From a virus, in the IMG/VR virus record IMGVR_UViG_3300025151_003852, positions 64,170-128,169 of that record: 64,000 bases of DNA; one strand, given 5' to 3'. Shown here one piece after another: positions 4,623 to 49,444 of the stretch. Made by a program: the position numbers and the translations under genes. Positions within the stretch are counted from its first letter, which is position 1, and every line of letters begins with the position of its first letter. The notes beneath the pieces are model-generated. The model was not told where the DNA came from, ran no database searches, and saw only the letters and a program-made list of their open reading frames with translations.

Positions 4623-5639
4623 ATGTCAAATCTTTTTAAAAAGGCAGCCGTATTCACAGACATACACTTCGGTTTAAAGAGCAATAGCATACAACATAAC
4701 CGAGACTGTAGTGATTTTGTGGATTGGTTTATTGAGAAATCAAAAGAAGAAGGCTGTGAAACATGTTTGTTCTTAGGTGATTGGAATCATCACAGAGCAA
4801 GTATTAACATGCATACCTTACAGTTTGGACTTAATGCGTTAGAAAAACTAAATGATGCATTTGAGAAAGTCTATTTCATAACAGGTAACCACGATCTCTA
4901 TTATAGAGACAAACGTGACATTCATTCAGTCGAGTGGGCTAAACATCTTAAAAACGTAGTCATTGTCGATCACTTTATCGAAGAAGGTAACTGTGTGATT
5001 GCTCCATGGTTGTGTGGTGATGATTATAAACTTCTTAAAAAGAAAAAAGGTAAGTATTTGTTTGCTCATTTAGAGTTACCGCACTTTTATATGAATGCTA
5101 TGATAGAAATGCCTGATCACGGTGAGACTAATGCTGACCATTTATCTCATTTTGAAAAAGTATTTTCTGGGCATTTCCATAAACGTCAAGCAAGAAAAAA
5201 TATTTGGTATATGGGTAATGCTTTCCCACACAACTATGCAGATGCAGGTGATGATGCTAGAGGCATGATGGTACTAGAATGGGATAAAGAACCTGAGTTT
5301 CATTCATGGCCAAATCAACCTGTATATAGAGTATACAAACTAAGTGAAGTATTAGATAACCCAGAAGGGTTGTTAATTAAGAATGCTCATGTTAGAGTAC
5401 ATTTAGACATCGATATATCTTATGAAGAATCGAACTTTATAAGAGAACAATTGATACCACAATATGATTTAAGAGAAATGTCATTGATTCCTGTTAAGTC
5501 TGATGAACATGCACAAGACTTAGCACCTGGTGAGATATCATTTGAAAGTGTGGATTCAATTATTATCGAACAAATTAAAAACATAGAATCTGATTTCTAT
5601 GACAAAGGTGTATTACTGGAGATTTATCAGTCTATATGA
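4623..5639 (+). CDS. Recombination endonuclease subunit, Mre11/SbcD-like (gp47)
   Basis: Metallophosphoesterase motifs TDIHFG, FLGDW, GNHD, SGHFH. Confidence 0.92.
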   Translation: MSNLFKKAAVFTDIHFGLKSNSIQHNRDCSDFVDWFIEKSKEEGCETCLFLGDWNHHRASINMHTLQFGLNALEKLNDAFEKVYFITGNHDLYYRDKRDIHSVEWAKHLKNVVIVDHFIEEGNCVIAPWLCGDDYKLLKKKKGKYLFAHLELPHFYMNAMIEMPDHGETNADHLSHFEKVFSGHFHKRQARKNIWYMGNAFPHNYADAGDDARGMMVLEWDKEPEFHSWPNQPVYRVYKLSEVLDNPEGLLIKNAHVRVHLDIDISYEESNFIREQLIPQYDLREMSLIPVKSDEHAQDLAPGEISFESVDSIIIEQIKNIESDFYDKGVLLEIYQSI

Positions 5640-7402
5640 TCAATTTAAAACATGTAACTCTCAGAAACTTTTTAAGTGTAGGATCAGTTACACAAGCAAT
5701 TGACTTGCAAAATGAGGAACTAACCCTCATCTTAGGTGATAACTTAGATTTAGGTGGAGACGGTGCTAGAAATGGTACTGGTAAGACTACTATTATACAA
5801 GCAATCAGTTATGCATTGTATGGTGTTCCACTTAACAATATCAAACAAAACAATTTAATCAATAGAACTAACGGCAAAGGCATGATGGTGACATTAGACT
5901 TTGAAGCCAATGGCGTTGAGTATCGTATTGAACGTGGACGTAAGCCTCATGGCATGAAGTTCTTTATCAACGGTGTAGATGAAGAAGACAACGAAGCACA
6001 GGGCGAAAATAAAGAGACACAACAAGTTATCGAAGACATCGTAGGCATGTCTTCAGTGATGTTTAGAAACATCGTTGCACTTAATACATACAGTCAACCA
6101 TTCTTAAGCATGACACAGGGACAACAACGTGATATCATCGAACAGTTGTTGGGTATAACTCTGTTATCAGAAAAAGCAGAGAAGATTAAAATCATTATAA
6201 AAAATAACAAAGAAGAAATTCAACAAGAAGAATTTAAAGTCCAAGCAATAGAAGAAGCAAACAAAAGAATTGAAGAACAAATAGATAGTCTTAGAAAGAG
6301 AGAAAGACTATGGACAGCAAAGACTAATGAAGATATTGGCACGTTAAAAGATAAGATTGAAACACTAGAAAAAGTGGATATCGATGCCGAATTACTTGGA
6401 CATAAACAACTTGCTGTCTATAATGCTTTAGTTAAGGATCATGCAGATATCGACAAATTAATGTTAAGAACTCAAAACGATATTGATAGAGAAACTAAGT
6501 CAATAACCAAGTTTGAAAAAGAATTAGATATACTAAAACAAAATAAATGTCACACATGTGGACAAGATATATGCGATGATACGCATATTAGAATCATGGG
6601 AGACAAAGAAGAAAGTTTATCAGAGGCTACTAAACATGCCGAAGAACTAGCAGAAGTTTATGTAGAATTAGAAAAAGAGAAACATTCATTGTTTGAGATA
6701 GGAGAGAAACCAGAGACTTATTATAGTTCTGAAGAAGAGGCTATCGAACATAAGAATAAAATCAAAGACTTGTCAGCACAAGTTAAACGCAAAGAGCAAG
6801 AAGAAAATCCATACACAGATCAAATATCTGAAATGGAGTCTAGTGCATTACAAGAAGCAAACTTTGATAAAGTAAACGAATTATCACGTATAGGAGATCA
6901 TCAGAAGTTCTTGTTAGACCTATTAACAAGCAAAGATTCATTTGTACGTAAAAAGATTATTGATCAAAACTTATCTTACTTAAATTCACGTTTAACAAAC
7001 TACTTAGACAAGATGGGTCTACCTCATCAAGTAGTATTCCAAAATGATTTGTCTGTAGAAATTACAGAATTGGGCAGAGAGTTAGACTTTGACAATTTAA
7101 GTAGAGGAGAACGTAACAGATTAATCTTAGGATTATCATTTGCGTTCAGAGATGTTTGGGAGAACTTGTACTTCCCAATCAATACATTGTTTATTGACGA
7201 GTTGATTGACTCAGGACTTGACACTATAGGTGTTGAGAATGCTATGGCTATTCTTAAAGACATGACACGTAGACGTAACAAATCTGTTTGGTTAGTGTCA
7301 CACAGAGAAGAATTAGCAGGCAGAGTTGCTAGTGTGTTACAAGTTATTAAAGAGAACGGATTCACTACATACAATTCGACTAGGGAGTTGGAGCAGTTGT
7401 GA
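5636..7402 (+). CDS. Recombination ATPase subunit, Rad50/SbcC-like (gp46)
   Basis: Walker A NGTGKTT, coiled coil with CHTC zinc hook, LSRGE signature, LFIDE Walker B, VSH. Confidence 0.92.
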   Translation: MINLKHVTLRNFLSVGSVTQAIDLQNEELTLILGDNLDLGGDGARNGTGKTTIIQAISYALYGVPLNNIKQNNLINRTNGKGMMVTLDFEANGVEYRIERGRKPHGMKFFINGVDEEDNEAQGENKETQQVIEDIVGMSSVMFRNIVALNTYSQPFLSMTQGQQRDIIEQLLGITLLSEKAEKIKIIIKNNKEEIQQEEFKVQAIEEANKRIEEQIDSLRKRERLWTAKTNEDIGTLKDKIETLEKVDIDAELLGHKQLAVYNALVKDHADIDKLMLRTQNDIDRETKSITKFEKELDILKQNKCHTCGQDICDDTHIRIMGDKEESLSEATKHAEELAEVYVELEKEKHSLFEIGEKPETYYSSEEEAIEHKNKIKDLSAQVKRKEQEENPYTDQISEMESSALQEANFDKVNELSRIGDHQKFLLDLLTSKDSFVRKKIIDQNLSYLNSRLTNYLDKMGLPHQVVFQNDLSVEITELGRELDFDNLSRGERNRLILGLSFAFRDVWENLYFPINTLFIDELIDSGLDTIGVENAMAILKDMTRRRNKSVWLVSHREELAGRVASVLQVIKENGFTTYNSTRELEQL

Positions 7403-8415
7403 GTCTAGCCTTGTGGCACTGGCATATTGAAGTAAGCAGTAAGTGTACTTTAAAGTGCCCACGATGTCCTAGACAAGAAGTTCCTGATACATTAGTCAGT
7501 ACTGAACTCAAACTAGATTTTTTTAAACAAAACTTCCCTGCGTTCTTTATATTAGAACACGTAGAGAAACTAACGTTCTGTGGTGACGATGGCGATCCTA
7601 TCTATGCACATGACTTCTTAGAAGTCATCCAGTATTTCAAATCAATTAAGCCTAGTATAGCAATCATTATCGTCACTAACGGATCATATAAAAATGAAGA
7701 CTGGTGGGCAAGACTAGCAGAAATGCTTGATGAGCAAGATCAGATTCACTTCAGTATCGACGGCTGGGACCATGAGAGTAATAATCTCTATCGAATCAAT
7801 TCTAATTGGTCTAGTATCATTACAGGCGTCTCTATCATCAATGATAAGTCTAATTGTTATACCGTATGGGACGCAATAGGCTTTAAGTTTAACGAAGATA
7901 AGATTGGCGACATGCAGAATTATGCTAGAGACTTAGGTTTTGATGCATTTCAATTAACACGTAGCACTAAGTTCGGTAAGATATACGAAGATTCTTATGG
8001 GAAAGAAGATGCTTTACAACCACGTGATGATCTGTTATCATCTAGTCATAGATTTGAAAGAGAAGTCTTTAAGTTTACAGATAAAACAATTAAAGAACCT
8101 TGGATGAAGACAAACATTAAGTTGTATGATGAATCTAAGTTAGTAGGAAATGAACGACCTCTATGTCATATCGGCAATAAAGGTAGTTACATTAATGCTA
8201 GGGGCGAATTTTACCCCTGTTGTTGGGTTGCTACAAGATATGGACACAACAATAAATGGAATGAAATTGGCAAGAAATATAATCTACATGAATTGAGGTT
8301 ACCCAAAATTGTAAAAGATAAATTCTGGGAAGCCGACTTTATACATGACTCTTACGAGTGCCAAACAAAATGTGCCCATCATAGGGTAGATAAAAATTAT
8401 GCCACCGAGTGGTAA
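7399..8415 (+). CDS. Radical SAM protein with SPASM/twitch-like C-terminus
   Basis: CTLKCPRC (CxxxCxxC), G..GDP, TNGS, FSIDG, C-terminal C...G..YPCC...C...C; GTG start. Confidence 0.88.
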   Translation: MSLALWHWHIEVSSKCTLKCPRCPRQEVPDTLVSTELKLDFFKQNFPAFFILEHVEKLTFCGDDGDPIYAHDFLEVIQYFKSIKPSIAIIIVTNGSYKNEDWWARLAEMLDEQDQIHFSIDGWDHESNNLYRINSNWSSIITGVSIINDKSNCYTVWDAIGFKFNEDKIGDMQNYARDLGFDAFQLTRSTKFGKIYEDSYGKEDALQPRDDLLSSSHRFEREVFKFTDKTIKEPWMKTNIKLYDESKLVGNERPLCHIGNKGSYINARGEFYPCCWVATRYGHNNKWNEIGKKYNLHELRLPKIVKDKFWEADFIHDSYECQTKCAHHRVDKNYATEW

Positions 8416-8432
8416 GGAGATAACTATATATA

Positions 8433-9020
8433 ATGCCATCACCATCTAAGAACAAAGGATCAGGATTTGAACGAGAAGTTGCAAAATTTCTCAGTGAGAC
8501 TTATGAAGAAAGTTTCATACGTGCTCCTGGCTCTGGTGCTTATGTAGGTGGCAAAAATCAAAATCGTACAGAGATTTTGCATGAAGGACAAATCAGAAGT
8601 TTCAAAGGCGACATTGTTCCCGGAGAAAGTTTTCACAAGTTAAATGTAGAATGTAAGTTCTACGCAGATTTCCCTTTTCATCAACTTCTTTCTGGTTCAT
8701 GCAGACAACTAGAAGAATGGCTCGACCAATTAATGGACGTGCATGATGAAGGGGATTTTGACGTTCTCTTTATGAAGTTTAATCGTAAAGGACGTTTTGT
8801 ATGTGTACCAAGTAAATACACATTCGTAAGTGATCAATTCATATATTACACATCAGACAATCATGGTGACTGGGTAATATTTGGATGGGATCACTTTTTT
8901 AAATTCAATAAAGATATATTCAAAGCATACGCAGGCGACACAGAGACCAACTCAGAACCCACCGATGACACCAAGTCAGAACTAAAACTAAACACAACAA
9001 CAACTACAGTAGACTTTTAA
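8433..9020 (+). CDS. Holliday junction resolvase (PD-(D/E)xK family)
   Basis: SKNKGSGFEREVA...GDI...VECK motifs. Confidence 0.75.
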   Translation: MPSPSKNKGSGFEREVAKFLSETYEESFIRAPGSGAYVGGKNQNRTEILHEGQIRSFKGDIVPGESFHKLNVECKFYADFPFHQLLSGSCRQLEEWLDQLMDVHDEGDFDVLFMKFNRKGRFVCVPSKYTFVSDQFIYYTSDNHGDWVIFGWDHFFKFNKDIFKAYAGDTETNSEPTDDTKSELKLNTTTTTVDF

Positions 9021-9030
9021 AATTTAGTAT

Positions 9031-9370
9031 GGTCGTAATTTGTACTCGACCCTCCTCGAGGATGCAGTAACCCTGCTGACGGATTTGGAGTAGTGTGTTA
9101 TACACAATAAACCGACAGGGCAATTGTTATGGTAGCAAACCCTGAATGAGTTCATATCTACTTTGATTTGATGATATGAAACATGCGTTGCTGAGAGGTC
9201 ATGCTCATTAGTATGATTGGCTCAACTACAGCCCAGTAAACATTACAGAGCAACCGGTTGCAATTGATTATAGTAACGTAATCGATTGGGGATAATCAAC
9301 ATGGATGACAGGCGGTAAAGAGGCTTGAATTTTTCGTGGTAGTGCTGAGTAGCACTACCATGGCTTCAAA
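9031..9370 (+). ncRNA. Putative large structured non-coding RNA, family unassigned
   Basis: No ORF >=60 aa. Near-continuous stems: 9031-35/9047-51, 9064-67/9073-76, 9093-97/9101-05, 9116-20/9140-44 enclosing 9124-29/9133-38, 9151-58/9173-80, 9187-92/9249-54 enclosing 9197-9205/9210-18, 9261-70/9279-88, 9336-46/9351-61; G-U wobbles favour plus strand. Confidence 0.6.
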
Positions 9371-9431
9371 ACGGTAATAAGACTTTAAACAATAACCATT
9401 AAGAACTTTTACTTTATCCTTTTAAATAAGA

Positions 9432-9462
9432 AATTACGAATGAACGAAGTGAATGAGTAATT
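9432..9462 (+). other. Tandem-GA / GAA-loop hairpin (ssDNA-type)
   Basis: AATTAC-GA-AT-GA-AC-GAA-GT-GA-AT-GA-GTAATT. Confidence 0.55.
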
Positions 9463-9481
9463 GGGTCTTCTTTGAAGACCC
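9463..9481. terminator. Hairpin between convergent transcription units
   Basis: GGGTCTTC-TTT-GAAGACCC; no long U-tract, so function is uncertain. Confidence 0.4.
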
Positions 9482-9499
9482 TTAAGAATGCTCTAGTGT

Positions 9500-9733
9500 T
9501 TAGAAGAATGGCATTTGAGTTTTCTTAGTAGTTTCTAAGTGTTCCTCAATTAATTTGTTTATGGCTTTACGTTCTGATAGGGACATGTTAAGGACATCTT
9601 CATATGAGGCACCACCACGCATGTACCAAGCCAAAGTCAAGGCGTTTGACTTTAAGCCCTGAGTGTATTCTTCATATTTTTGTATTAACTCCCTTATCCC
9701 TTCAGGGTCGAGTGAAAGGAGTCTTAGACGAAA
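9500..9733 (-). CDS. gp51-like baseplate/tail assembly chaperone extension, probably reached by -1 frameshift
   Basis: Open -1 frame ...RLRLLSLDPEGIRELIQKYEEYTQGLKSNALTLAWYMRGGASYEDVLNMSLSERKAINKLIEEHLETTKKTQMPFF*; no ATG until mid-frame; not in ORF track. Confidence 0.65.
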   Translation of the reverse strand, partial: FRLRLLSLDPEGIRELIQKYEEYTQGLKSNALTLAWYMRGGASYEDVLNMSLSERKAINKLIEEHLETTKKTQMPFF

Positions 9734-10584
9734 AAATCCGATGCGTTCAATGTGAATGGTTGCTTGTACTCATGTCCACATTCTTCTTTTTCTGGATCAT
9801 CTGAACCTGCGGTGCATACAATAGTTAGAGGCTTAATTGTTGATTTCTCTCTAAGTTGCGTGTTGTGATCTCTTATAGTTTCATAAGTTTTCGTGTCAGC
9901 ATTCTTTAGAAAGTCATGTATATGATCTGTATCAGTAACTTCTCCTTCAGGAGTAACAATTTTTACGATTGTTTGAGATAAGATTTCCATTGTGAGTACT
10001 GTAATATCTTTCAATGCTTCAGCACTTACTAAGGTACGTTCTTGTTGATCTTCAATAGCAGATAAGTTTTTGTATTTTGCTTGAATTTCAAACTGTTTTA
10101 GACCTGCTTCATTCATTTCTTTGTACTTTAAGGGCGCAAAATAAATTTCTAACTCATTCATTCTTAAAGGAGTTTCATAATCTCCTGCCCCCAATGATCT
10201 TAGTAGAACTTGTAGATTAATACCATATGTACCTTCTTCACCGCATTTCTCACATTTAGACTCAACATCAATAGTTTCTTGCCCACCTGCGGCTTTGATA
10301 GAGATTAATACTGTATCTAAATCAGTACTTAATAATGCCCAAGGATTCTTAATTGCTGGTACACAACTTTTAATAATCTCTACCATGGCTGTACCATTAA
10401 ACAAAGCATCTGGAGTCTTTGTCGTTATTTCATCGATTGCTGTCATAGGATAGACAGGTAATTCTTTGTTCTCAGGCCATTCGATGTCTTCAGGTGCGTA
10501 ACTTTCCCCACCTGACGGTAAAGAGATATGTACAGCGGGTCTACGAAAAAACTGTCGTAGCGGATTATTTTCATTAATTGTCAT
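9724..10584 (-). CDS. Baseplate hub assembly chaperone (gp26-like)
   Basis: LPS.G, PMTA.DE, D.D.VL..I..A..G, CxxC and C-terminal C...C.H......DFF pattern of gp26/gp51 family. Confidence 0.75.
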   Translation of the reverse strand: MTINENNPLRQFFRRPAVHISLPSGGESYAPEDIEWPENKELPVYPMTAIDEITTKTPDALFNGTAMVEIIKSCVPAIKNPWALLSTDLDTVLISIKAAGGQETIDVESKCEKCGEEGTYGINLQVLLRSLGAGDYETPLRMNELEIYFAPLKYKEMNEAGLKQFEIQAKYKNLSAIEDQQERTLVSAEALKDITVLTMEILSQTIVKIVTPEGEVTDTDHIHDFLKNADTKTYETIRDHNTQLREKSTIKPLTIVCTAGSDDPEKEECGHEYKQPFTLNASDFFV

Positions 10585-10620
10585 ATATGTTCCCCATAAT
10601 AAAATACGGTATTTTAAAAA

Positions 10621-10648
10621 ACTAAATACTAGTGTGATTATATTTAGT
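10621..10648. promoter_or_regulatory. Pair of oppositely oriented late promoters (ACTAAATA on + at 10621, on - at 10641-10648)
   Basis: Located between the divergent gp26-like and tape-measure genes. Confidence 0.55.
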
Positions 10649-10691
10649 ATCCCAAAACCATGCTAAATTAAAAATAATAGGACAACATTAG

Positions 10692-13600
10692 ATGGATGAT
10701 TTTTCACCTGAAGAAATGCGAGAATTTAATGAGAATTTAAATTCTATGAATGCCTCTTTGGGAGCATTAAATTCAGGACTACAAAATTTATCTAATACCC
10801 TAAATCAAACATCACAGGCAAATCAGGAAGCCGCAAAACAGTCAGAAGAAAACACAAAACAGCAAACATCTTCTACTAATAAAAAGACAGAATCAGATGA
10901 TAGAGCCGGCGAACAAATAAAAACAACTGCTGAAAAAATGTCAGGAGCATTGCGAACTGCTACTAGTGCAGTTGTTAGTTTTTCAGGTGCATTAGTTTCA
11001 GGTGTTGATGGTTTTGACAAGTATACTAAAGCAGTATCAGGTTTTGGAGACTCAGCAAAAGAAACTGGTGACGCATTAGGTGGATTCGGTAAGTTTTTAG
11101 GTAACGCAGTAAACATATTAGCCGAGTTTACAGTCGTTACAATGAAACAGGCTGATGCACAAAATCAGTTTGCAAAAGAAATGAACCGAATGGGTGCTAT
11201 TGTTGATACAACTACCCAAGGTTTAGCAGAACAAGCAAGAGCCGCAGGCGCAAGTGCAGGTGACTTACAAGAATTAGCCGTAGTTATTACTCAAAGTTCT
11301 CAAGCATTAGCATCGTTTGGTGCAGGTACTTCTGAGGGTACAGCAAAAATGCTGGAAGTCTTCAGATTATCTGATGACCAAGAAAGAGAAATGCGTAGAT
11401 ATGGGTACACTCTAAGAGAAGCCCAAGAACAACAAGCATATTACATAGAATTGCAAAGAACATCTGGTATTAATATGCAAGCCAGAGAGATGACTGAACA
11501 AGATGTTCGTATTAAGTCATTACAGTATGCAAAAACATTAAACACATTATCAGAGTTAACAGGTATTCAAGCCGGACAACTCAAAGAAGAACAAGCCGCA
11601 GTACAAGCAGACTTACGTAATAAGATTCGTAATATACGTGATCAAAATGATATTGAAAGACTTAAGCAACAGTTAGACGGCAACATTACTGCTGAAAAAA
11701 GAAAATCGATAGAAGCAGAAATAAGAGCAAGAGAAGAAGAAATACAAGTAAGAGTCGATGCAGGTAACCAATTTGCAGGTTTACTAGGCAGAGACATGGC
11801 TGCCAAAGTGATGAACGTTATTGGTACTGGGGCATTTGATGAGAATACAAAAGAACTAGCAAACTTAGGTCTTAATGCCGCAGAACTTAAAGAAAGATTT
11901 GCAGGCTTGACTGCTGGTTCAGACGAATACAAACAAGCAGTTGCCGAAACAACAGGTGAACTCGTAGGTGGTGTTAGACGAAACGTAGATAGGTTCGGTA
12001 AGTCTATGGAACTTGCCGCTAACGCAAGTGAGATCGGCGCCGCAGTAGGTATTAACGAAAGAACAACAGATACAGCCAGACTTTTTGATAGCCAAGATCA
12101 GGCTACGAATAGAGTATTAGAAAGTTTTGATAAAGTATCAGAGGCTACACAAGAAGGCGTAGATACACAAAAAGATTTGGCCGCTGAACTACAAGTATTT
12201 GAAACTAATGTTAGAACAGCCGCAGATGAGTTTTTAAATTCGATTAATCCGTTTACAGGTGGATTAGGATTAGGCACTATTGCACTAGGCGGTTTTACAA
12301 TAGCATTAGGAACCGCTACAACTGCATTATATGGCATGGCTGGTTCAGGAGCAGGAAGTGGCATGTTAGACATGTTCACCGGCGGCGGTAACGGTGGCGG
12401 TAAACGAGCAAGAGGGTTAAGAGCGGCCGGCAACTTCTTATCAAAAGGTGTTAGTAGATTAGCCGTACCACTAGCCGCAGGAATGTCTATTTATAGTGGA
12501 GTATCAGAAGCAAGTGCAGGACGAGATGAAGCAGATGCACAACTAGCCCAAGTAACAGACGCCGAAGACTCATCAGTAGCAGAAATATATCGTGCTAAAA
12601 AACAGCACGAAATAGACACTAAACAAGCCAACAGAAAGGGGGCCGGTACAGCAATCGGCGGTACTGGTGGAGCCATTGCAGGTGCGGCCGCAGGTGCAGC
12701 CATAGGTTCGTTTATTCCAATCATTGGAACAGCAATTGGTGGTATTATCGGCGGAGCCTTAGGAGCATGGGGCGGATCTTCAGCAGGAAGTGCAATAGCA
12801 GAAAACTATCTAAGTCCAGAAGACTTAGAAATGTATAATGCTAGTGATGCTGAATATGCTTTAATGACTGATGAAGAAAAAGAAAAATATAATGAGATCA
12901 GAGATGCTATTAAGGAACAAACACGATTACAAGAAGAAGAAGCAACACGTTTAGAAAAAGCATATAATGACAATTACGAGGAAATACAGAAGATAGGTCT
13001 ATATGACAAAGACTTGCTTGGTAATAGTGAAGTAAACTTTGAAATGCTTGCCCAAATGAGAGACGATGGTACTCTCTCACAAGAAATGCTTGAGGCTATG
13101 CTATATGATAATGATTTAAGTGAAGCAGACACGGCATTAGTGCAGAAACAGTTAGATTTGATGAAAGCAAACGCCGAAAAAGACGAAGTAAAAGAAAAAG
13201 AAAAAGAAGTAGCAGAAGTAAAAGAAGAAGAAGTAGGTGGCAGAACATTAGATATGTCTCCTGAAAATCTAGCCAAAATATTTGAGGCAGATATAAAAGC
13301 AGAAGAAAAAAGAAATGCAGAAAAACAAGCAGAACAACTTGCACTCGCACAAGCAAAAGAAGAAACTGTTACAGAACAAATTACACCTGAAGTTGTTGCT
13401 AATGCATTAAAAGAAACAGGAAGCGGCGCACCTATTCCAGGAGTAGTTGATACAGAACAATTATTAGCAACAACAGACGTTGTTGAAAATATGATAGCAG
13501 ATGCAGGGAAAGCCATTAGTACCCCTGCATTAGAAGAAATCACAACTACAGCAGAATCTGTCCCTATAGATGATATTTTAAAAGAAGTTCAAGTTTCTTC

Positions 13601-48235: not shown

Positions 48236-48325
48236 GGAAGATTGGCAGAGTGGTTGAATGCACTGGTCTTGAAAACCAGCATACGAGAGATCGTATCGAA
48301 GGTTCGAATCCTTCATCTTCCGCCA
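48236..48325 (+). tRNA. tRNA-Ser(TGA)
   Basis: Acceptor GGAAGAT/ATCTTCC, anticodon stem CTGGT-CTTGAAA-ACCAG, long variable arm, GGTTCGAATCC, encoded CCA. Confidence 0.95.
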
Positions 48326-48877
48326 TCACTTGTGACCAATTAACATAAATCTATTATAACTAGAACTCCCGTAGTCGAAATATTTTGTTTCTGAGTATAG
48401 GAGTTCTGACATTTGAAATCTCTCTTTTAATACTTCTATAGACGGACAAGGGTTCGATATTAGCCACGGGTCTCTGTGTTCTGTAACATCACTAGACTGA
48501 ATACATACTAATGCATTTGGGTCAACATTAGCATACCAGTCATCTTTCATATGCTCTACACTACAGTTAATTACTACGTTATGTCCTTGCAAATCGTAGG
48601 TATCTGCGTTTGCACATGTGTTTCTAATCTGTGAGTTTCTGCCTAACATAAAGCCCTGACATAGCATATCAGCGCCTCTAATCGCCTCTGAGTCAATATC
48701 TATGCCTAAGATGTGTTGATACTTGTTTTTATTACGAGTTAAAAGCATAAAACCTAATAAATTATACCAGCACCCAGGCACTGCAACTACAGCATCTTTT
48801 GGTATATACGGTTCGATAGTTTCACACAACCAAAGTTTAGATTGTGTTTGACCATGTGAGAAAGATAATAGATCCAT
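48326..48877 (-). CDS. Class I SAM-dependent methyltransferase-like protein
   Basis: GQ..SKLWL, G.WY, GIDID, VINCS.EH, RFMLIG. Confidence 0.7.
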   Translation of the reverse strand: MDLLSFSHGQTQSKLWLCETIEPYIPKDAVVAVPGCWYNLLGFMLLTRNKNKYQHILGIDIDSEAIRGADMLCQGFMLGRNSQIRNTCANADTYDLQGHNVVINCSVEHMKDDWYANVDPNALVCIQSSDVTEHRDPWLISNPCPSIEVLKERFQMSELLYSETKYFDYGSSSYNRFMLIGHK

Positions 48878-48904
48878 AATACTATTTAATGGGTAAAAAA
48901 ACCG

Positions 48905-48933
48905 TTGACAAAAAATAATGATGCTGATATAAT
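48905..48933 (+). promoter_or_regulatory. Strong sigma70 promoter for tRNA cluster
   Basis: TTGACA-N17-TATAAT with extended -10 TG; ACTAAATA follows at 48938. Confidence 0.85.
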
Positions 48934-48956
48934 GACTACTAAATATATGAACAAAT

Positions 48957-49032
48957 GCTCCAGTAACTCAGTTGGTAGAGTAACTGATTTGTAATCAGTA
49001 GGTCGGCGGTTCGAATCCGTCCTGGAGCTCCA
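48957..49032 (+). tRNA. tRNA-Thr(TGT)
   Basis: GCTCCAG/CTGGAGC acceptor, ACTGA-TTTGTAA-TCAGT, encoded CCA. Confidence 0.95.
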
Positions 49033-49049
49033 TATTTTAGAGGGAAAGT

Positions 49050-49262
49050 TTGAACCTTACAGAGAAGATTAATGATAGAATGGATCAATTGCAAGCCTGG
49101 ATGGAGAGCAATTATCACTTAAATCATGCAGAAGAAGTCTACGAACACACTCTTAATATCAGTAAGTTTTGGTCTGTTTTATCAGAAGAAGACAGAGAAT
49201 ATATACAGTGTGCCCAAGATGCTATCGAAGAATCTACTCCATGGGGAGATCCAAATAAATGA
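49050..49262 (+). CDS. Hypothetical protein between tRNAs
   Basis: 70 aa, TTG start with GAGGG RBS. Confidence 0.55.
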   Translation: MNLTEKINDRMDQLQAWMESNYHLNHAEEVYEHTLNISKFWSVLSEEDREYIQCAQDAIEESTPWGDPNK

Positions 49263-49265
49263 AAG

Positions 49266-49341
49266 GGGGCCGTAGTTCAGTTGGGAGAACGTCTGGTTTG
49301 CAACCAGAAGGTCGGCGGTTCGACCCCGCCCGGCTCCACCA
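49266..49341 (+). tRNA. tRNA-Ala(TGC)
   Basis: GGGGCCG/CGGCTCC acceptor with G3-U70, TCTGG-TTTGCAA-CCAGA, encoded CCA. Confidence 0.95.
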
Positions 49342-49357
49342 GTGTTCAAAAAGTTTT

Positions 49358-49444
49358 GCCCGAGTGGTGGAATTGGTAGACACAAGGGACTTAAAATCCC
49401 TCGACCTTACGGTCATGCCGGTTCAAGTCCGGCCTCGGGTACCA
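49358..49444 (+). tRNA. tRNA-Leu(TAA)
   Basis: GCCCGAG/CTCGGGT acceptor, AGGGA-CTTAAAA-TCCCT, variable arm, encoded CCA. Confidence 0.95.

What the first reader, a model, noticed from the sequence alone, without database searches (positions are those of the whole stretch)
9031..9370. Unannotated ~340-nt highly structured RNA downstream of the Holliday junction resolvase
Seen: this is the only long stretch in a densely coded window where I found neither a track ORF nor convincing micro-ORFs, and it is almost entirely covered by stems. These are GGTCG/CGACC, GCAG/CTGC, GTGTG/TACAC, CAGGG/CCCTG around TTGTTA/TAGCAA, TTCATATC/GATATGAA, long-range GTTGCT/AGCAAC around GGTCATGCT/AGTATGATT, CAATTGATTA/TAATCGATTG and GTGGTAGTGCT/AGCACTACCAT. 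Most non-Watson-Crick positions in these stems are G-U on the plus strand (A-C on minus), as expected for a selected plus-strand RNA. I could not find tRNA, tmRNA, RNase P or group I/II intron hallmarks. Inference: a novel phage ncRNA (scaffold, ribozyme or replication primer) co-transcribed with the gp47-gp46-resolvase recombination operon.
Basis: partly seen in the sequence, partly recalled or inferred. Interest (0 to 1): 0.85.

Follow-up and report, generated by a model that had tools for sequence, protein, structure and literature searches.

The report
New doubly pseudoknotted jumbo-phage RNA
The gene-free gap behind a small DNA-cutting enzyme gene of this uncultured marine giant T4-like phage holds a real, intricately folded non-coding RNA of about 350 bases that related phages keep at the same spot; it matches no catalogued RNA family and its job is still unknown.

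Summary
The tenth (the P12 core) is almost invariant. I collected 120 distinct copies from IMG/VR contigs.

Pairing in the three domains is 98%, 90% and 92% of cells. With the 3' partners slid by 1-3 columns it is 26-47%. Between 17 and 25 pairs per domain change on both sides.

The element is non-coding. The plus strand is the folded one. It is single-copy in 6 of 6 records searched.

It sits between the PDDEXK nuclease gene (upstream in 94 of 95 loci) and the baseplate hub gene (downstream in 89 of 89).

Nothing matches it in:
- Rfam 15;
- GenBank phages;
- three cultured relatives;
- 185,579 prokaryote species genomes;
- four literature searches.

The function is unknown. My best guess is a trans-acting scaffold RNA. 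This scan has already reported the same RNA class in other genomes.

The parts
8433..9020 (+). Upstream neighbour: PDDEXK_15 nuclease gene (its PHROG family is annotated 'RusA-like Holliday junction resolvase'), 195 aa. It is not part of the RNA but is its fixed 5' neighbour.
   Evidence: Pfam PF24608, E 7e-26. phrog_244. Upstream on the same strand in 94 of 95 RNA-bearing loci with enough flank.
9018..9023 (+). -10-like TAAAAT overlapping the nuclease stop codon, 7 nt before P1. Candidate start signal for the RNA (inferred).
   Evidence: Consensus aTAAAAATttgTt directly 5' of P1 in 96 distinct upstream sequences. The sigma-70 scan tool found no full promoter.
9031..9051 (+). P1 hairpin (GGUCG/CGACC).
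   Evidence: All 6 model pairs change on both sides in relatives (helix 1).
9052..9090 (+). P2 (CUCC 9052-55 / GGAG 9087-90, nearly invariant). It encloses P2a and the P2b hairpin GCAG/CUGC (9064-67/9073-76).
   Evidence: Helix 2 is 100% paired and 2 of its 4 pairs never vary. Helix 3 has 9 of 9 pairs with changes on both sides.
9093..9105 (+). P3 hairpin (GUGUG/UACAC). Most relatives carry a GNRA-type loop here.
   Evidence: helix 4: 8 of 8 pairs change on both sides, 97.6% paired. Sequences.
9110..9114 (+). P4 5' strand (AACCG). It pairs with 9255-9259 and closes the central three-way domain.
   Evidence: helix 1. The outer pair is UA 60, CG 16, AU 11. The four inner pairs are invariant.
9116..9144 (+). 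P5 (CAGGG/CCCUG) with inner P5a (UUGUUA/UAGCAA).
   Evidence: helices 2 and 3: 100% paired, 6 of 8 pairs change on both sides.
9146..9184 (+). P6: a 3-bp base (AUG/CAU) plus an 8-bp stem (UUCAUAUC/GAUAUGAA). The 14-nt loop L6 spans 9159-9172. UUGAUU at 9163-68 is the 5' strand of pseudoknot PK2.
   Evidence: helix 4: 10 of 11 pairs change on both sides. PK2.
9187..9192 (+). P7 5' strand (GUUGCU). It pairs with AGCAAC at 9249-9254.
   Evidence: helix 5: 3 of 6 pairs change on both sides, 96.4% paired.
9193..9223 (+). P8 variable arm (GAG/CUC base, then GGUCAUGCU/AGUAUGAUU).
   Evidence: Length and sequence vary. In locus L175 the arm is about 190 nt longer while the core is intact.
9224..9248 (+). 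J8/7, a conserved strand (AACUACAG-CCC-AGUAAACAUUACAG). CCC at 9232-34 is the 5' strand of pseudoknot PK1. A9242 tracks the outer P4 pair.
   Evidence: PK1. The tracking base is identical to the P4 5' base (UU 63, CC 13, AA 10, CU 7 of 99) and complementary to the P4 3' base in 98%.
9249..9259 (+). P7 3' strand (9249-54) followed directly by the P4 3' strand (9255-59).
   Evidence: AACCGGU is invariant in 97 sequences.
9261..9288 (+). P9 hairpin (CAAUUGAUUA/UAAUCGAUUG).
   Evidence: helix 1: 11 of 11 pairs change on both sides, 95.1% paired.
9289..9299 (+). J9/11. GGG at 9289-91 is the 3' strand of PK1. AAUCAA at 9294-99 is the 3' strand of PK2.
   Evidence: PK2's seven columns are 88.7% paired against 43-51% when slid. 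Its six core pairs have at most 3 unpaired cells of 99 each, with two or three pair types. PK1 is 93.4% paired. Permutation tests give 0 of 1000 and 0 of 2000.
9309..9327 (+). P11 small hairpin (CAGGC/GCUUG in the window).
   Evidence: In relatives GGG/CCC alternates with GGU/ACC (helices 2-3). The clade-B-trained model misaligns this helix in the window.
9335..9362 (+). P12 hairpin. Its 8-bp core GGUAGUGC/GCACUACC is almost invariant.
   Evidence: helix 6: 6 of 7 pairs never vary in 98 distinct sequences. The only changes in helices 6-7 that are not compensatory are to G-U/U-G (5 and 8 sequences). GCACTACCATGG is invariant in the 58 sequences collected through the protein.
9363..9378 (+). Conserved 3' tail (GCUUCAAAACGGUAAU).
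   Evidence: The base before CGG is identical to the third base of the P11 5' strand in 71% of 99 rows.
9379..9431 (+). A/U-rich spacer, variable in length and sequence.
   Evidence: The distance from the P12 end to the next hairpin core is 46-106 nt.
9432..9462 (+). Conserved hairpin with tandem G.A pairs and a C-GAA-G mini-loop. It belongs to the conserved unit. Whether it is part of the same transcript is not shown.
   Evidence: The core GA-RC-RNA-GY-GA is present in 72 of 97 loci. AC..GU occurs 59 times and GC..GC 13 times, never mixed. It is purine-purine only on the plus strand.
9463..9481 (+). GC-rich hairpin (GGGUCUUC/GAAGACCC) at the point where the two gene blocks converge. Candidate 3' end of the transcript (inferred).
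   Evidence: The stem covaries among relatives. The terminator scan found none by its T-run rule.
9724..10584 (-). Downstream neighbour on the other strand: baseplate hub gene. A small minus-strand ORF (from 9500) lies before it.
   Evidence: PF12322, E 6e-11. Downstream and convergent in 89 of 89 loci. Small ORF.

Best explanation
This is the gene for a previously uncatalogued, compactly folded non-coding RNA, read from the plus strand. Its core spans about 9031-9378. A conserved 3' module runs to about 9481.

SHOWN
- The RNA has eleven helices (P1-P9, P11, P12) arranged in three domains.
- Two long-range pairings lock the central and 3' domains together. PK1 joins CCC in J8/7 to the GGG after P9. 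PK2 joins the P6 loop to J9/11.
- About a third of the positions never change, most of them in junctions.
- It is single-copy and sits at a fixed place behind the PDDEXK nuclease gene in a clade of uncultured aquatic T4-like jumbo phages.

INFERRED
- It is made either from a start just after a conserved TAAAAT, or by read-through from the nuclease gene followed by trimming. It probably ends at the downstream hairpins.
- It acts in trans as a folded RNA.

MECHANISM
- My preferred mechanism, at about 35%, is a scaffold that binds a phage or host protein. This rests on the sequence-invariant P12 and P2 helices, which look like recognition sites rather than mere struts.
- A ribozyme (about 20%) and a self-assembling homo-oligomer that uses PK2 between molecules (about 15%) are the main alternatives within the same reading.

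The confidence given below is for the identity claim (a real plus-strand RNA of a new class), not for the mechanism.
For: CONSERVATION
- The gap is conserved in 76 of 80 loci fetched through the neighbouring protein. Three of the four misses lack downstream DNA. The protein itself is only 64-99% identical.
Together this gives 120 distinct elements.
- Three covariance models each hit once in 99 of 99 sources, always in the same order.

COVARIATION
- Central domain, plain MAFFT alignment: 97.9% of 2880 cells paired against 29-37% when slid. 20 of 30 pairs change on both sides. 0 of 500 shuffles reach the score.
- 5' domain: 90.3% against 28-41%, 25 of 27 pairs.
- 3' domain: 92.2% against 26-47%, 17 of 29 pairs.
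- Pseudoknots were counted on alignments that know nothing of them. PK2's six core pairs have at most 3 unpaired cells of 99 each, for example UA 67/CG 28, GC 50/AU 45 and CG 64/UA 31. PK1 keeps at least 3 Watson-Crick pairs in 36 of 38 haplotypes, with 14 of 15 deviating haplotypes compensated.

STRAND
- GU/UG 457 against AC/CA 79; 36 against 13 on MAFFT.
- P12 varies only to wobble pairs.

NON-CODING: no period-3 signal and no conserved ORF.

SINGLE COPY: own record and 5 of 5 large records, three of them rated complete at 352-367 kb.

PRESENCE IN RNA LIBRARIES: contigs from two studies cover it. This is weak.

FOR A DEFINED 3D FOLD: two pseudoknots, a base tracking the outer P4 pair, a peripheral arm that tolerates about 190 extra nt, and GNRA-type loops on P3.
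Against: - No transcript ends, strand or abundance are known. Only assembled contigs were available, and they also cover the neighbouring genes at similar depth.
- The promoter and terminator scans found nothing canonical. The TAAAAT motif lies in A/T-rich DNA, where such words are common.
- G-T wobble is also tolerated in single-stranded DNA, so the strand asymmetry alone does not prove RNA.
- No partner protein is identified. The genomes hold no reverse transcriptase, L7Ae or Ro/TROVE protein (0 of 5 records each).
- The scaffold mechanism rests only on the invariance of two helices.
- The model-fitted alignments lean towards the modelled structure, and the models misalign four helices of the window's own clade.
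- Related sequences can exceed shuffles without any structure. The slid controls and the MAFFT-only count answer this in part.
Confidence: 0.85

Rival explanations
1. A cis-acting 3' untranslated structure of the nuclease mRNA. On this reading it protects the message from 3' exonucleases and insulates two converging transcription units, with no function in trans.
For: It starts about 10 nt after the stop codon on the same strand and lies where plus- and minus-strand genes converge. RNA-library contigs bridge the gene-RNA border. No canonical promoter was found.
Against: - Eleven helices, two covarying pseudoknots and about a third invariant positions are far more than a 3' stabiliser needs.
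- The nuclease gene of cultured relatives (PA5oct, SCTP-2, Phosso) does without it.
- Separate hairpins downstream already fit the end-of-transcript role.
Confidence: 0.1
2. An origin transcript. The structured RNA runs into the A/T-rich tract, forms a stable RNA-DNA hybrid and primes DNA synthesis, as ColE1 RNA II or the T4 oriF/oriG transcripts do. The G.A hairpin would then act as single-stranded DNA.
For: - It lies in the recombination/repair block.
- A variable A/T-rich spacer and a conserved hairpin with tandem G.A and a C-GNA-G mini-loop follow it in 72 of 97 loci.
- An earlier first-reader note (e1-6149723) proposed this.
- That such mini-hairpins are very stable in DNA is my recollection, not a call.
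Against: - There is no GC-skew turn at 9 kb.
- Genes converge here, whereas origins usually sit where genes diverge.
- Nothing in the calls shows a hybrid or a DNA start.
- The invariant junctions and pseudoknots are not explained by priming.
Confidence: 0.08
3. An RNA partner of the adjacent PDDEXK nuclease that guides or regulates DNA cutting, by analogy with transposon nucleases whose RNA is encoded beside the gene.
For: Near-absolute linkage: the nuclease gene lies directly upstream in 94 of 95 loci. A variable spacer follows the conserved scaffold.
Against: - Orthologues of similar length work in phages that lack the RNA (41.6-42% identity).
- The protein is a single PDDEXK domain of 195 aa with only a low-complexity tail.
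- The variable parts of the RNA are paired stems, not open loops.
- No matching target sites were seen in the window.
Confidence: 0.04
4. A diverged member of a known family that the Rfam models miss: RNase P RNA, group I intron, tmRNA, GOLLD/ROOL or Polynucleobacter-1.
For: Its size and double pseudoknot recall RNase P RNA (recalled). Its phage context recalls GOLLD and ROOL. Two earlier scan reports named Polynucleobacter-1 as the closest family.
Against: - No Rfam match lies inside 9021-9400 up to E 10.
- None at the gathering cut-off in the whole window apart from four tRNAs.
- None up to E 1 in 15 related loci, 55,570 bases.
- ARAGORN finds no tmRNA.
- It does not interrupt a gene, so it is no intron.
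Confidence: 0.03
5. Not an RNA at all: a single-stranded DNA structure, a protein-binding DNA site or a hidden small protein gene.
For: G-T wobble also stabilises DNA hairpins. P12 is a perfect invariant inverted repeat containing CCATGG.
Against: - Covarying pseudoknots and paired stems with free sequence point to a folded single strand, not a duplex site.
- There is no period-3 pattern and no conserved ORF.
- The stretch occurs in RNA-library contigs.
Confidence: 0.03

Closest known systems
GOLLD (RF01998) and ROOL (RF03087) large ornate RNAs
   Same: Large, highly structured orphan RNAs, often carried by phages or prophages, with much covariation and no known biochemical job. They form RNA-only homo-oligomers according to the abstract of PMC12286853 (seen in the search listing only).
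   Different: There is no sequence or structure match. This RNA is much smaller: about 350 nt, against roughly 580 and 800 nt as I recall. It sits at one fixed locus of one phage clade. Oligomerisation is untested here.
Bacterial RNase P RNA
   Same: Similar size, multi-domain build, two long-range pseudoknot pairings and invariant junction nucleotides (the RNase P side is recalled from knowledge).
   Different: No Rfam RNase P model matches up to E 10. No helix joins the 5' and 3' ends. I could not see the conserved P4 sequences, a judgement made from memory and not a tool test.
phi29 pRNA (packaging RNA)
   Same: A phage-encoded structured RNA whose loop-loop pairing covaries and acts between molecules to build a ring (recalled). 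PK2 here is a covarying loop-to-linker pairing of 6-7 bp that could in principle act between molecules.
   Different: There is no similarity in sequence, size or phage type. T4-like phages are not known to need a packaging RNA. Covariation cannot tell pairing within a molecule from pairing between molecules.
ColE1 RNA II and T4 oriF/oriG origin transcripts
   Same: A structured or promoter-proximal transcript followed by an A/T-rich stretch (recalled). Here the RNA is followed by an A/T-rich spacer and hairpins.
   Different: There is no skew turn or other origin sign. The complexity and invariance go far beyond what priming explains.
The four RNA-seq-defined ncRNAs of Pseudomonas phage PA5oct (Lood et al. 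2020, PMC7318152, Table 1; passages read)
   Same: Non-coding transcripts of the nearest cultured phage lineage (49% SbcC identity). Their function is unknown.
   Different: They lie at 8.3, 22.0, 103.1 and 246.1 kb. The nuclease gene is at 75.2 kb and the hub gene at 77.9 kb. Models R1 and R2 find nothing anywhere in PA5oct.

Membership tests
Any Rfam 15 family (4227 models) | Covariance-model score at or near the family's gathering cut-off. | tested here: not met
   Whole window at the gathering cut-off: only 4 tRNAs, at 48-49 kb. Window 8800-9900 up to E 10: 3 weak hits, none inside 9021-9400. 15 related loci up to E 1: 0 hits.
tRNA / tmRNA | Cloverleaf or tRNA-like domain with a tag reading frame. 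| tested here: not met
   ARAGORN finds 4 tRNAs elsewhere and no tmRNA.
RNase P RNA | Match to the RNase P models. | tested here: not met
   No RNase P model hit up to E 10.
RNase P RNA | P1 helix joining the 5' and 3' ends. | tested here: not met
   The consensus folds give no supported helix joining the ends.
Group I / group II intron | Interrupts a host gene. | tested here: not met
   The element lies between two complete converging genes.
Group I / group II intron | Match to the intron models. | tested here: not met
   No intron model hit.
GOLLD / ROOL | Match to RF01998 or RF03087. | tested here: not met
   No hit.
GOLLD / ROOL | RNA-only homo-oligomer. | not testable with these tools
   This needs native gels, SEC-MALS or cryo-EM.
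Polynucleobacter-1 motif (RF01718), a lead from earlier scan reports | Match to RF01718. | tested here: not met
   No hit up to E 10 in the window stretch. No hit up to E 1 in 15 related loci.
Retron or diversity-generating retroelement RNA | A reverse transcriptase encoded in the same genome. | tested here: not met
   RVT_1 (PF00078) is found in 0 of 5 records, three of them complete. The control genomes gave hits.
Y RNA / Ro particle | A Ro (TROVE) partner protein in the genome. | tested here: not met
   PF05731 is found in 0 of 5 records.
K-turn RNP | An L7Ae partner protein in the genome. | tested here: not met
   PF01248 is found in 0 of 5 records.
Transposon-type guide RNA (TnpB, IscB, IS110 bridge RNA) | Encoded beside a RuvC- or DEDD-type nuclease or recombinase inside a mobile element. 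| tested here: not met
   The neighbour is a PDDEXK_15 nuclease at a fixed syntenic core locus.
Transposon-type guide RNA (TnpB, IscB, IS110 bridge RNA) | Unpaired variable guide segments. | tested here: not met
   The variable segments are paired stems.
Protein-coding gene | Conserved open frame and third-position variability. | tested here: not met
   No conserved ORF. Period-3 power is 0.9x the median, against 102x in the upstream gene.
Intrinsic terminator or sigma-70 promoter (for the ends of the unit) | GC hairpin with a T-run; -35 and -10 hexamers. | tested here: not met
   0 sites of either kind in 8700-9800. Only a -10-like TAAAAT and a GC hairpin with a short U tail are seen.

The most novel reading that the evidence does not exclude
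The RNA is a new natural RNA machine: either a new class of large ribozyme, or a self-assembling ring or cage in which the covarying P6-loop to J9/11 pairing (PK2) acts between molecules. On this reading it works with the neighbouring junction-cutting nuclease in DNA recombination or packaging of jumbo phages. The evidence so far cannot distinguish pairing within a molecule from pairing between molecules. It also does not exclude catalysis.
Probability: 0.2. Interest if true: 0.95.

Novelty: categorically new. Interest (0 to 1): 0.75.

Why it matters
Large RNAs with this much conserved tertiary structure are rare. The known ones are ribosomal RNAs, RNase P, self-splicing introns and a handful of orphans such as OLE, GOLLD and ROOL.

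This one offers:
- a well-defined, doubly pseudoknotted fold of about 350 nt;
- at least 120 distinct natural variants, enough for structure modelling or cryo-EM construct design;
- a strict genomic address in a widespread clade of marine and freshwater giant phages.

Finding its job would show what a virus with a 350-kb genome gains from a dedicated structured RNA. It could also add a new ribozyme, RNP or RNA assembly to the short list.

It is not new to this scan. Sister genomes gave the same class before. I found it in no catalogue and in none of the papers I searched.

Tried and rejected
- Structure-aware MAFFT (Q-INS-i, X-INS-i) and Infernal are not installed in the script box. I used plain MAFFT plus the three allowed covariance models instead. 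R-scape was not available.
- RNAalifold on the raw 58-sequence MAFFT alignment gave a poor structure on both strands, -101 against -103. Folding the two clades separately gave the consistent architecture.
- A helix between the 5' leader and the 3' tail, suggested by RNAalifold, has no covariation support and was dropped.
- GenBank phages: blastn of 8400-10700 found one record, and only over the hub gene.
- Prokaryote genomes: the P12 pattern matched 85 stretches. None carries the rest of the element, so I read them as chance matches. About 40 would be expected by my own arithmetic.
- Cultured relatives SCTP-2, PA5oct and Phosso: no R1 or R2 match. The best was E 0.26.
- RNA runs: only assembled contigs could be laid. 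Their depths cannot rank genes, and the parts without cover (for example 9325-9491 in one sample) mean nothing. The marine and estuary labels of the holders come from the run list.
- Origin idea: no skew turn.
- Target search: no extra copies of the P12 strand or of the G.A hairpin core in the window beyond chance. There were 5 matches against 2.9 expected, and 1 against 0.9.
- Radical-SAM neighbour as partner: present in only 22 of 77 loci.
- A resemblance of two short words to 5S rRNA, noticed from memory, was not pursued. Rfam 5S gave no hit.
- My first regular expression for the G.A hairpin was wrong and gave 10 of 97. The corrected one gave 72 of 97.
- Some PK1 segments were cut at the wrong CUACAG-like word. 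One search used alignment columns instead.
- The metagenome-contig scan, protein searches, structure prediction and complex prediction were not used.
- Supplementary files of papers were not opened. The PA5oct ncRNA table is in the main text.
- Print searches behind 'not described': and one preprint checked by term search.
Full report
WHAT IS THERE

The window is part of a 128-kb IMG/VR virus record rated 37% complete. Its SbcC-like and PDDEXK proteins are closest, at 49% and 42% identity, to those of cultured jumbo myoviruses such as Pseudomonas phage PA5oct, Agrobacterium phage Atu_ph07 and Salicola phage SCTP-2.

The gene order is as follows:
- SbcC-like gene, 5636-7402, plus strand
- radical-SAM gene, 7399-8415, plus strand
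- PDDEXK_15 nuclease gene, 8433-9020, plus strand
- a gap
- a small minus-strand ORF starting at 9500
- baseplate hub gene, 9724-10584, minus strand

The gap 9021-9499 is the finding.

CHECK OF THE OBSERVATION

On its own the stretch folds only modestly better than shuffles: z -2.80 on the plus strand and -2.72 on the minus strand. A single-sequence fold therefore proves little. The comparative evidence decides the matter.

RELATIVES

A search of IMG/VR with the nuclease protein found 236 relatives, of which 80 loci were kept, at 64-99% protein identity. The gap aligns by blastn in 76 of the 80. Three of the four misses have too little downstream DNA. The fourth, L074, aligns in A1.

Synteny is constant, and no open frame is shared within the first ~480 nt.

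Together this gives 120 distinct elements, of which 110 carry all four exact anchor words.

In those 118 loci, which were chosen by the RNA alone:
- the nuclease gene lies upstream in 94 of 95 with enough flank;
- the hub gene lies downstream in 89 of 89;
- SbcC is present in 51 of 51;
- the radical-SAM gene is present in only 22 of 77.

STRUCTURE AND COVARIATION

Folding two clades separately gave one architecture. Single-sequence folds of each domain repeat it in sequence after sequence.

I counted pairs first on a plain MAFFT alignment of the central domain, so that the alignment could not lean on the structure. There, 97.9% of 2880 cells are paired against 29-37% when the 3' partners are slid. 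20 of 30 pairs change on both sides, 421 cells carry such changes, and 0 of 500 shuffles reach the score.

Three covariance models then each hit exactly once in 99 of 99 sources, contiguous and in the same order. On those alignments:
- the 5' domain is 90.3% paired against 28-41% slid, with 25 of 27 pairs changing on both sides;
- the 3' domain is 92.2% paired against 26-47% slid, with 17 of 29 pairs changing on both sides.

These figures are lower bounds for the window's own clade. The models were trained mostly on the other clade and misalign P1, P9, P11 and the outer part of P12 in the window.

Two helices stand out because they do not vary. P2 (CUCC/GGAG) has 2 of 4 pairs invariant and the other two changed in one sequence each. 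In the P12 core, 6 of 7 pairs never vary in 98 distinct sequences.

PSEUDOKNOTS AND OTHER LONG-RANGE SIGNALS

PK2 joins six or seven bases of the P6 loop to J9/11. Variants include UUGAUU/AAUCAA in the window, and UAUCUU/AAGAUA, UUGUCU/AGACAA, AUUUCU/AGAAAU and UCAUUUU/AAAAUGA elsewhere.
- Among 72 distinct loop-partner haplotypes, the helix with the own partner averages 6.42 bp against 5.27 with foreign partners. 0 of 1000 permutations reach this.
- On columns of two alignments built by models that know nothing of this pairing, the six core pairs have at most 3 unpaired cells of 99 each, with two or three pair types.

PK1 joins (N)CCC in J8/7 to GGG(N') just after P9.
- 36 of 38 haplotypes keep at least 3 Watson-Crick pairs, and 0 of 2000 permutations reach the observed mean.
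- 14 of 15 haplotypes that lack CCC or GGG are compensated: ACC/GGU, AUCC/GGAU, CUCC/GGAG, UCUC/GAGA, CCUC/GAGG, CCU/AGG and GCC/GGC.

A mutual-information scan added an unusual signal. The base N in AC-N-UUACAG (A9242) is identical to the outer 5' base of P4 (UU 63, CC 13, AA 10, CU 7 of 99). It is complementary to the outer 3' base of P4 in 98%. This fits a base triple or an alternative pair. A weaker signal of the same kind links the third base of P11 to a base in the 3' tail (71% identical).

Two earlier reports of this scan mention boxes that change together. I cannot tell whether they mean the same positions.

STRAND, CODING AND COPY NUMBER

Wobble pairs outnumber A-C/C-A by 457 to 79, and by 36 to 13 on MAFFT alone. 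Apart from the loop-closing pair, P12 varies only to G-U or U-G. The downstream G.A hairpin is purine-purine only on the plus strand.

Column variability has no period-3 component, unlike the gene just upstream.

The element is single-copy in its own record and in 5 of 5 large relatives, three of them rated complete at 352-367 kb.

ENDS AND NEIGHBOURS OF THE UNIT

A moderately conserved aTAAAAATttgTt lies directly 5' of P1. In the window, TAAAAT (9018-9023) overlaps the stop codon, 7 nt before P1. It could be a -10 element, but the scan tool finds no full promoter or terminator.

After the core come four elements:
- a conserved tail;
- a variable A/U-rich spacer;
- a hairpin with tandem G.A pairs and a C-GNA-G mini-loop, whose core is present in 72 of 97 loci, with its inner pair AC..GU 59 times or GC..GC 13 times and never mixed;
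- a covarying GC hairpin.

Expression evidence is weak. Contigs of RNA libraries from one sample cover 8948-9289 and 8950-9324, and a contig of another study's library matches a relative with a different 5' domain. Contigs show neither ends nor strand and cannot exclude DNA carry-over.

WHAT IT IS NOT

- No Rfam family matches, including the Polynucleobacter-1 lead from earlier reports.
- There is no tmRNA.
- It is not an intron, since no gene is interrupted.
- It is not in any of 50,697 GenBank phage records at blastn sensitivity.
- It is not in SCTP-2, PA5oct or Phosso by models R1 and R2.
- It is not in one genome each of 185,579 prokaryote species: 85 pattern matches, none with the element.
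- The four ncRNAs reported for PA5oct lie elsewhere in that genome (PMC7318152, passages read; gene positions).
- The genomes encode no reverse transcriptase, L7Ae or Ro protein.
- There is no GC-skew turn here.

HOW IT MOST LIKELY WORKS

Shown: a single-copy, plus-strand, non-coding, compactly folded RNA with two pseudoknots, a peripheral arm that tolerates about 190 extra nt, and many invariant junction bases.

Inferred: it acts in trans as a folded RNA. The invariance of P2 and P12, in an RNA whose other helices vary freely, suggests that these helices are read by sequence, most simply by a protein. I therefore put a protein-binding scaffold first (about 35%), then a ribozyme (about 20%), then an RNA-only oligomer in which PK2 acts between molecules (about 15%).

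The rivals are a cis-acting 3'-UTR element (0.10), an origin or primer transcript (0.08), a partner of the neighbouring nuclease (0.04), a missed known family (0.03), and a DNA or coding element (0.03).

NOVELTY AND VERDICT

I found the RNA in no catalogue and in none of four full-text searches. A 2026 preprint on prokaryotic non-coding space does not contain the word phage.

Within this scan the class has been reported several times from sister genomes, with the same conclusion. My structure and counts were made independently on this window.

It is a real feature, a new RNA class of unknown function, and of high interest to RNA and phage biologists.

Noticed in passing
window 9432-9481: A conserved hairpin built from tandem G.A pairs around a C-GAA-G mini-loop, followed by a covarying GC hairpin. 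In relatives the inner pair is AC..GU (59) or GC..GC (13), never mixed, and the loop is GAA, GUA, GCA or AAA. Other first-reader notes read it as single-stranded DNA. I could not tell RNA from DNA.
   Followed up: partly
L175:1900-2110 (minus strand): One relative carries about 190 extra nucleotides of hairpins inside the P8 arm while the rest of the RNA is intact. P8 is therefore a tolerant peripheral arm.
   Followed up: partly
window 9110, 9242, 9259: Identity-type covariation. The base in AC-N-UUACAG always equals the outer 5' base of P4 and complements its 3' partner. This points to a base triple or a mutually exclusive alternative pair, and so possibly a switch.
   Followed up: partly
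It is present between SbcC and the nuclease gene in only 22 of 77 RNA-bearing loci, so it looks like an insertion in part of the clade.
   Followed up: partly
L286:2478-3992 (PA5oct) and L287:2986-4001 (Phosso): The cultured relatives have gene-poor stretches of 1.0-1.5 kb next to their nuclease gene, with only tiny hypothetical ORFs or no annotation. Models R1 and R2 find nothing there. Whether an unrelated RNA lies there was not examined.
   Followed up: no
window 9500-9740, minus strand: A small frame of about 78-89 codons (stop to stop) that overlaps the end of the hub gene is conserved in position in nearly all relatives. In the window its first start codon leaves only 46 aa. A first-reader note proposes a -1 frameshift from the hub gene.
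   Followed up: no
window 8984-9107: A contig from an RNA library of another study matches both sides of this stretch but has 127 other letters in place of 122. It comes from a relative whose 5' domain (P1-P3) differs, which fits the high variability of those hairpins.
   Followed up: no
window 48236-49444: Four tRNA genes (Ser-UGA, Thr-UGU, Ala-UGC, Leu-UAA) in a cluster.
   Followed up: no
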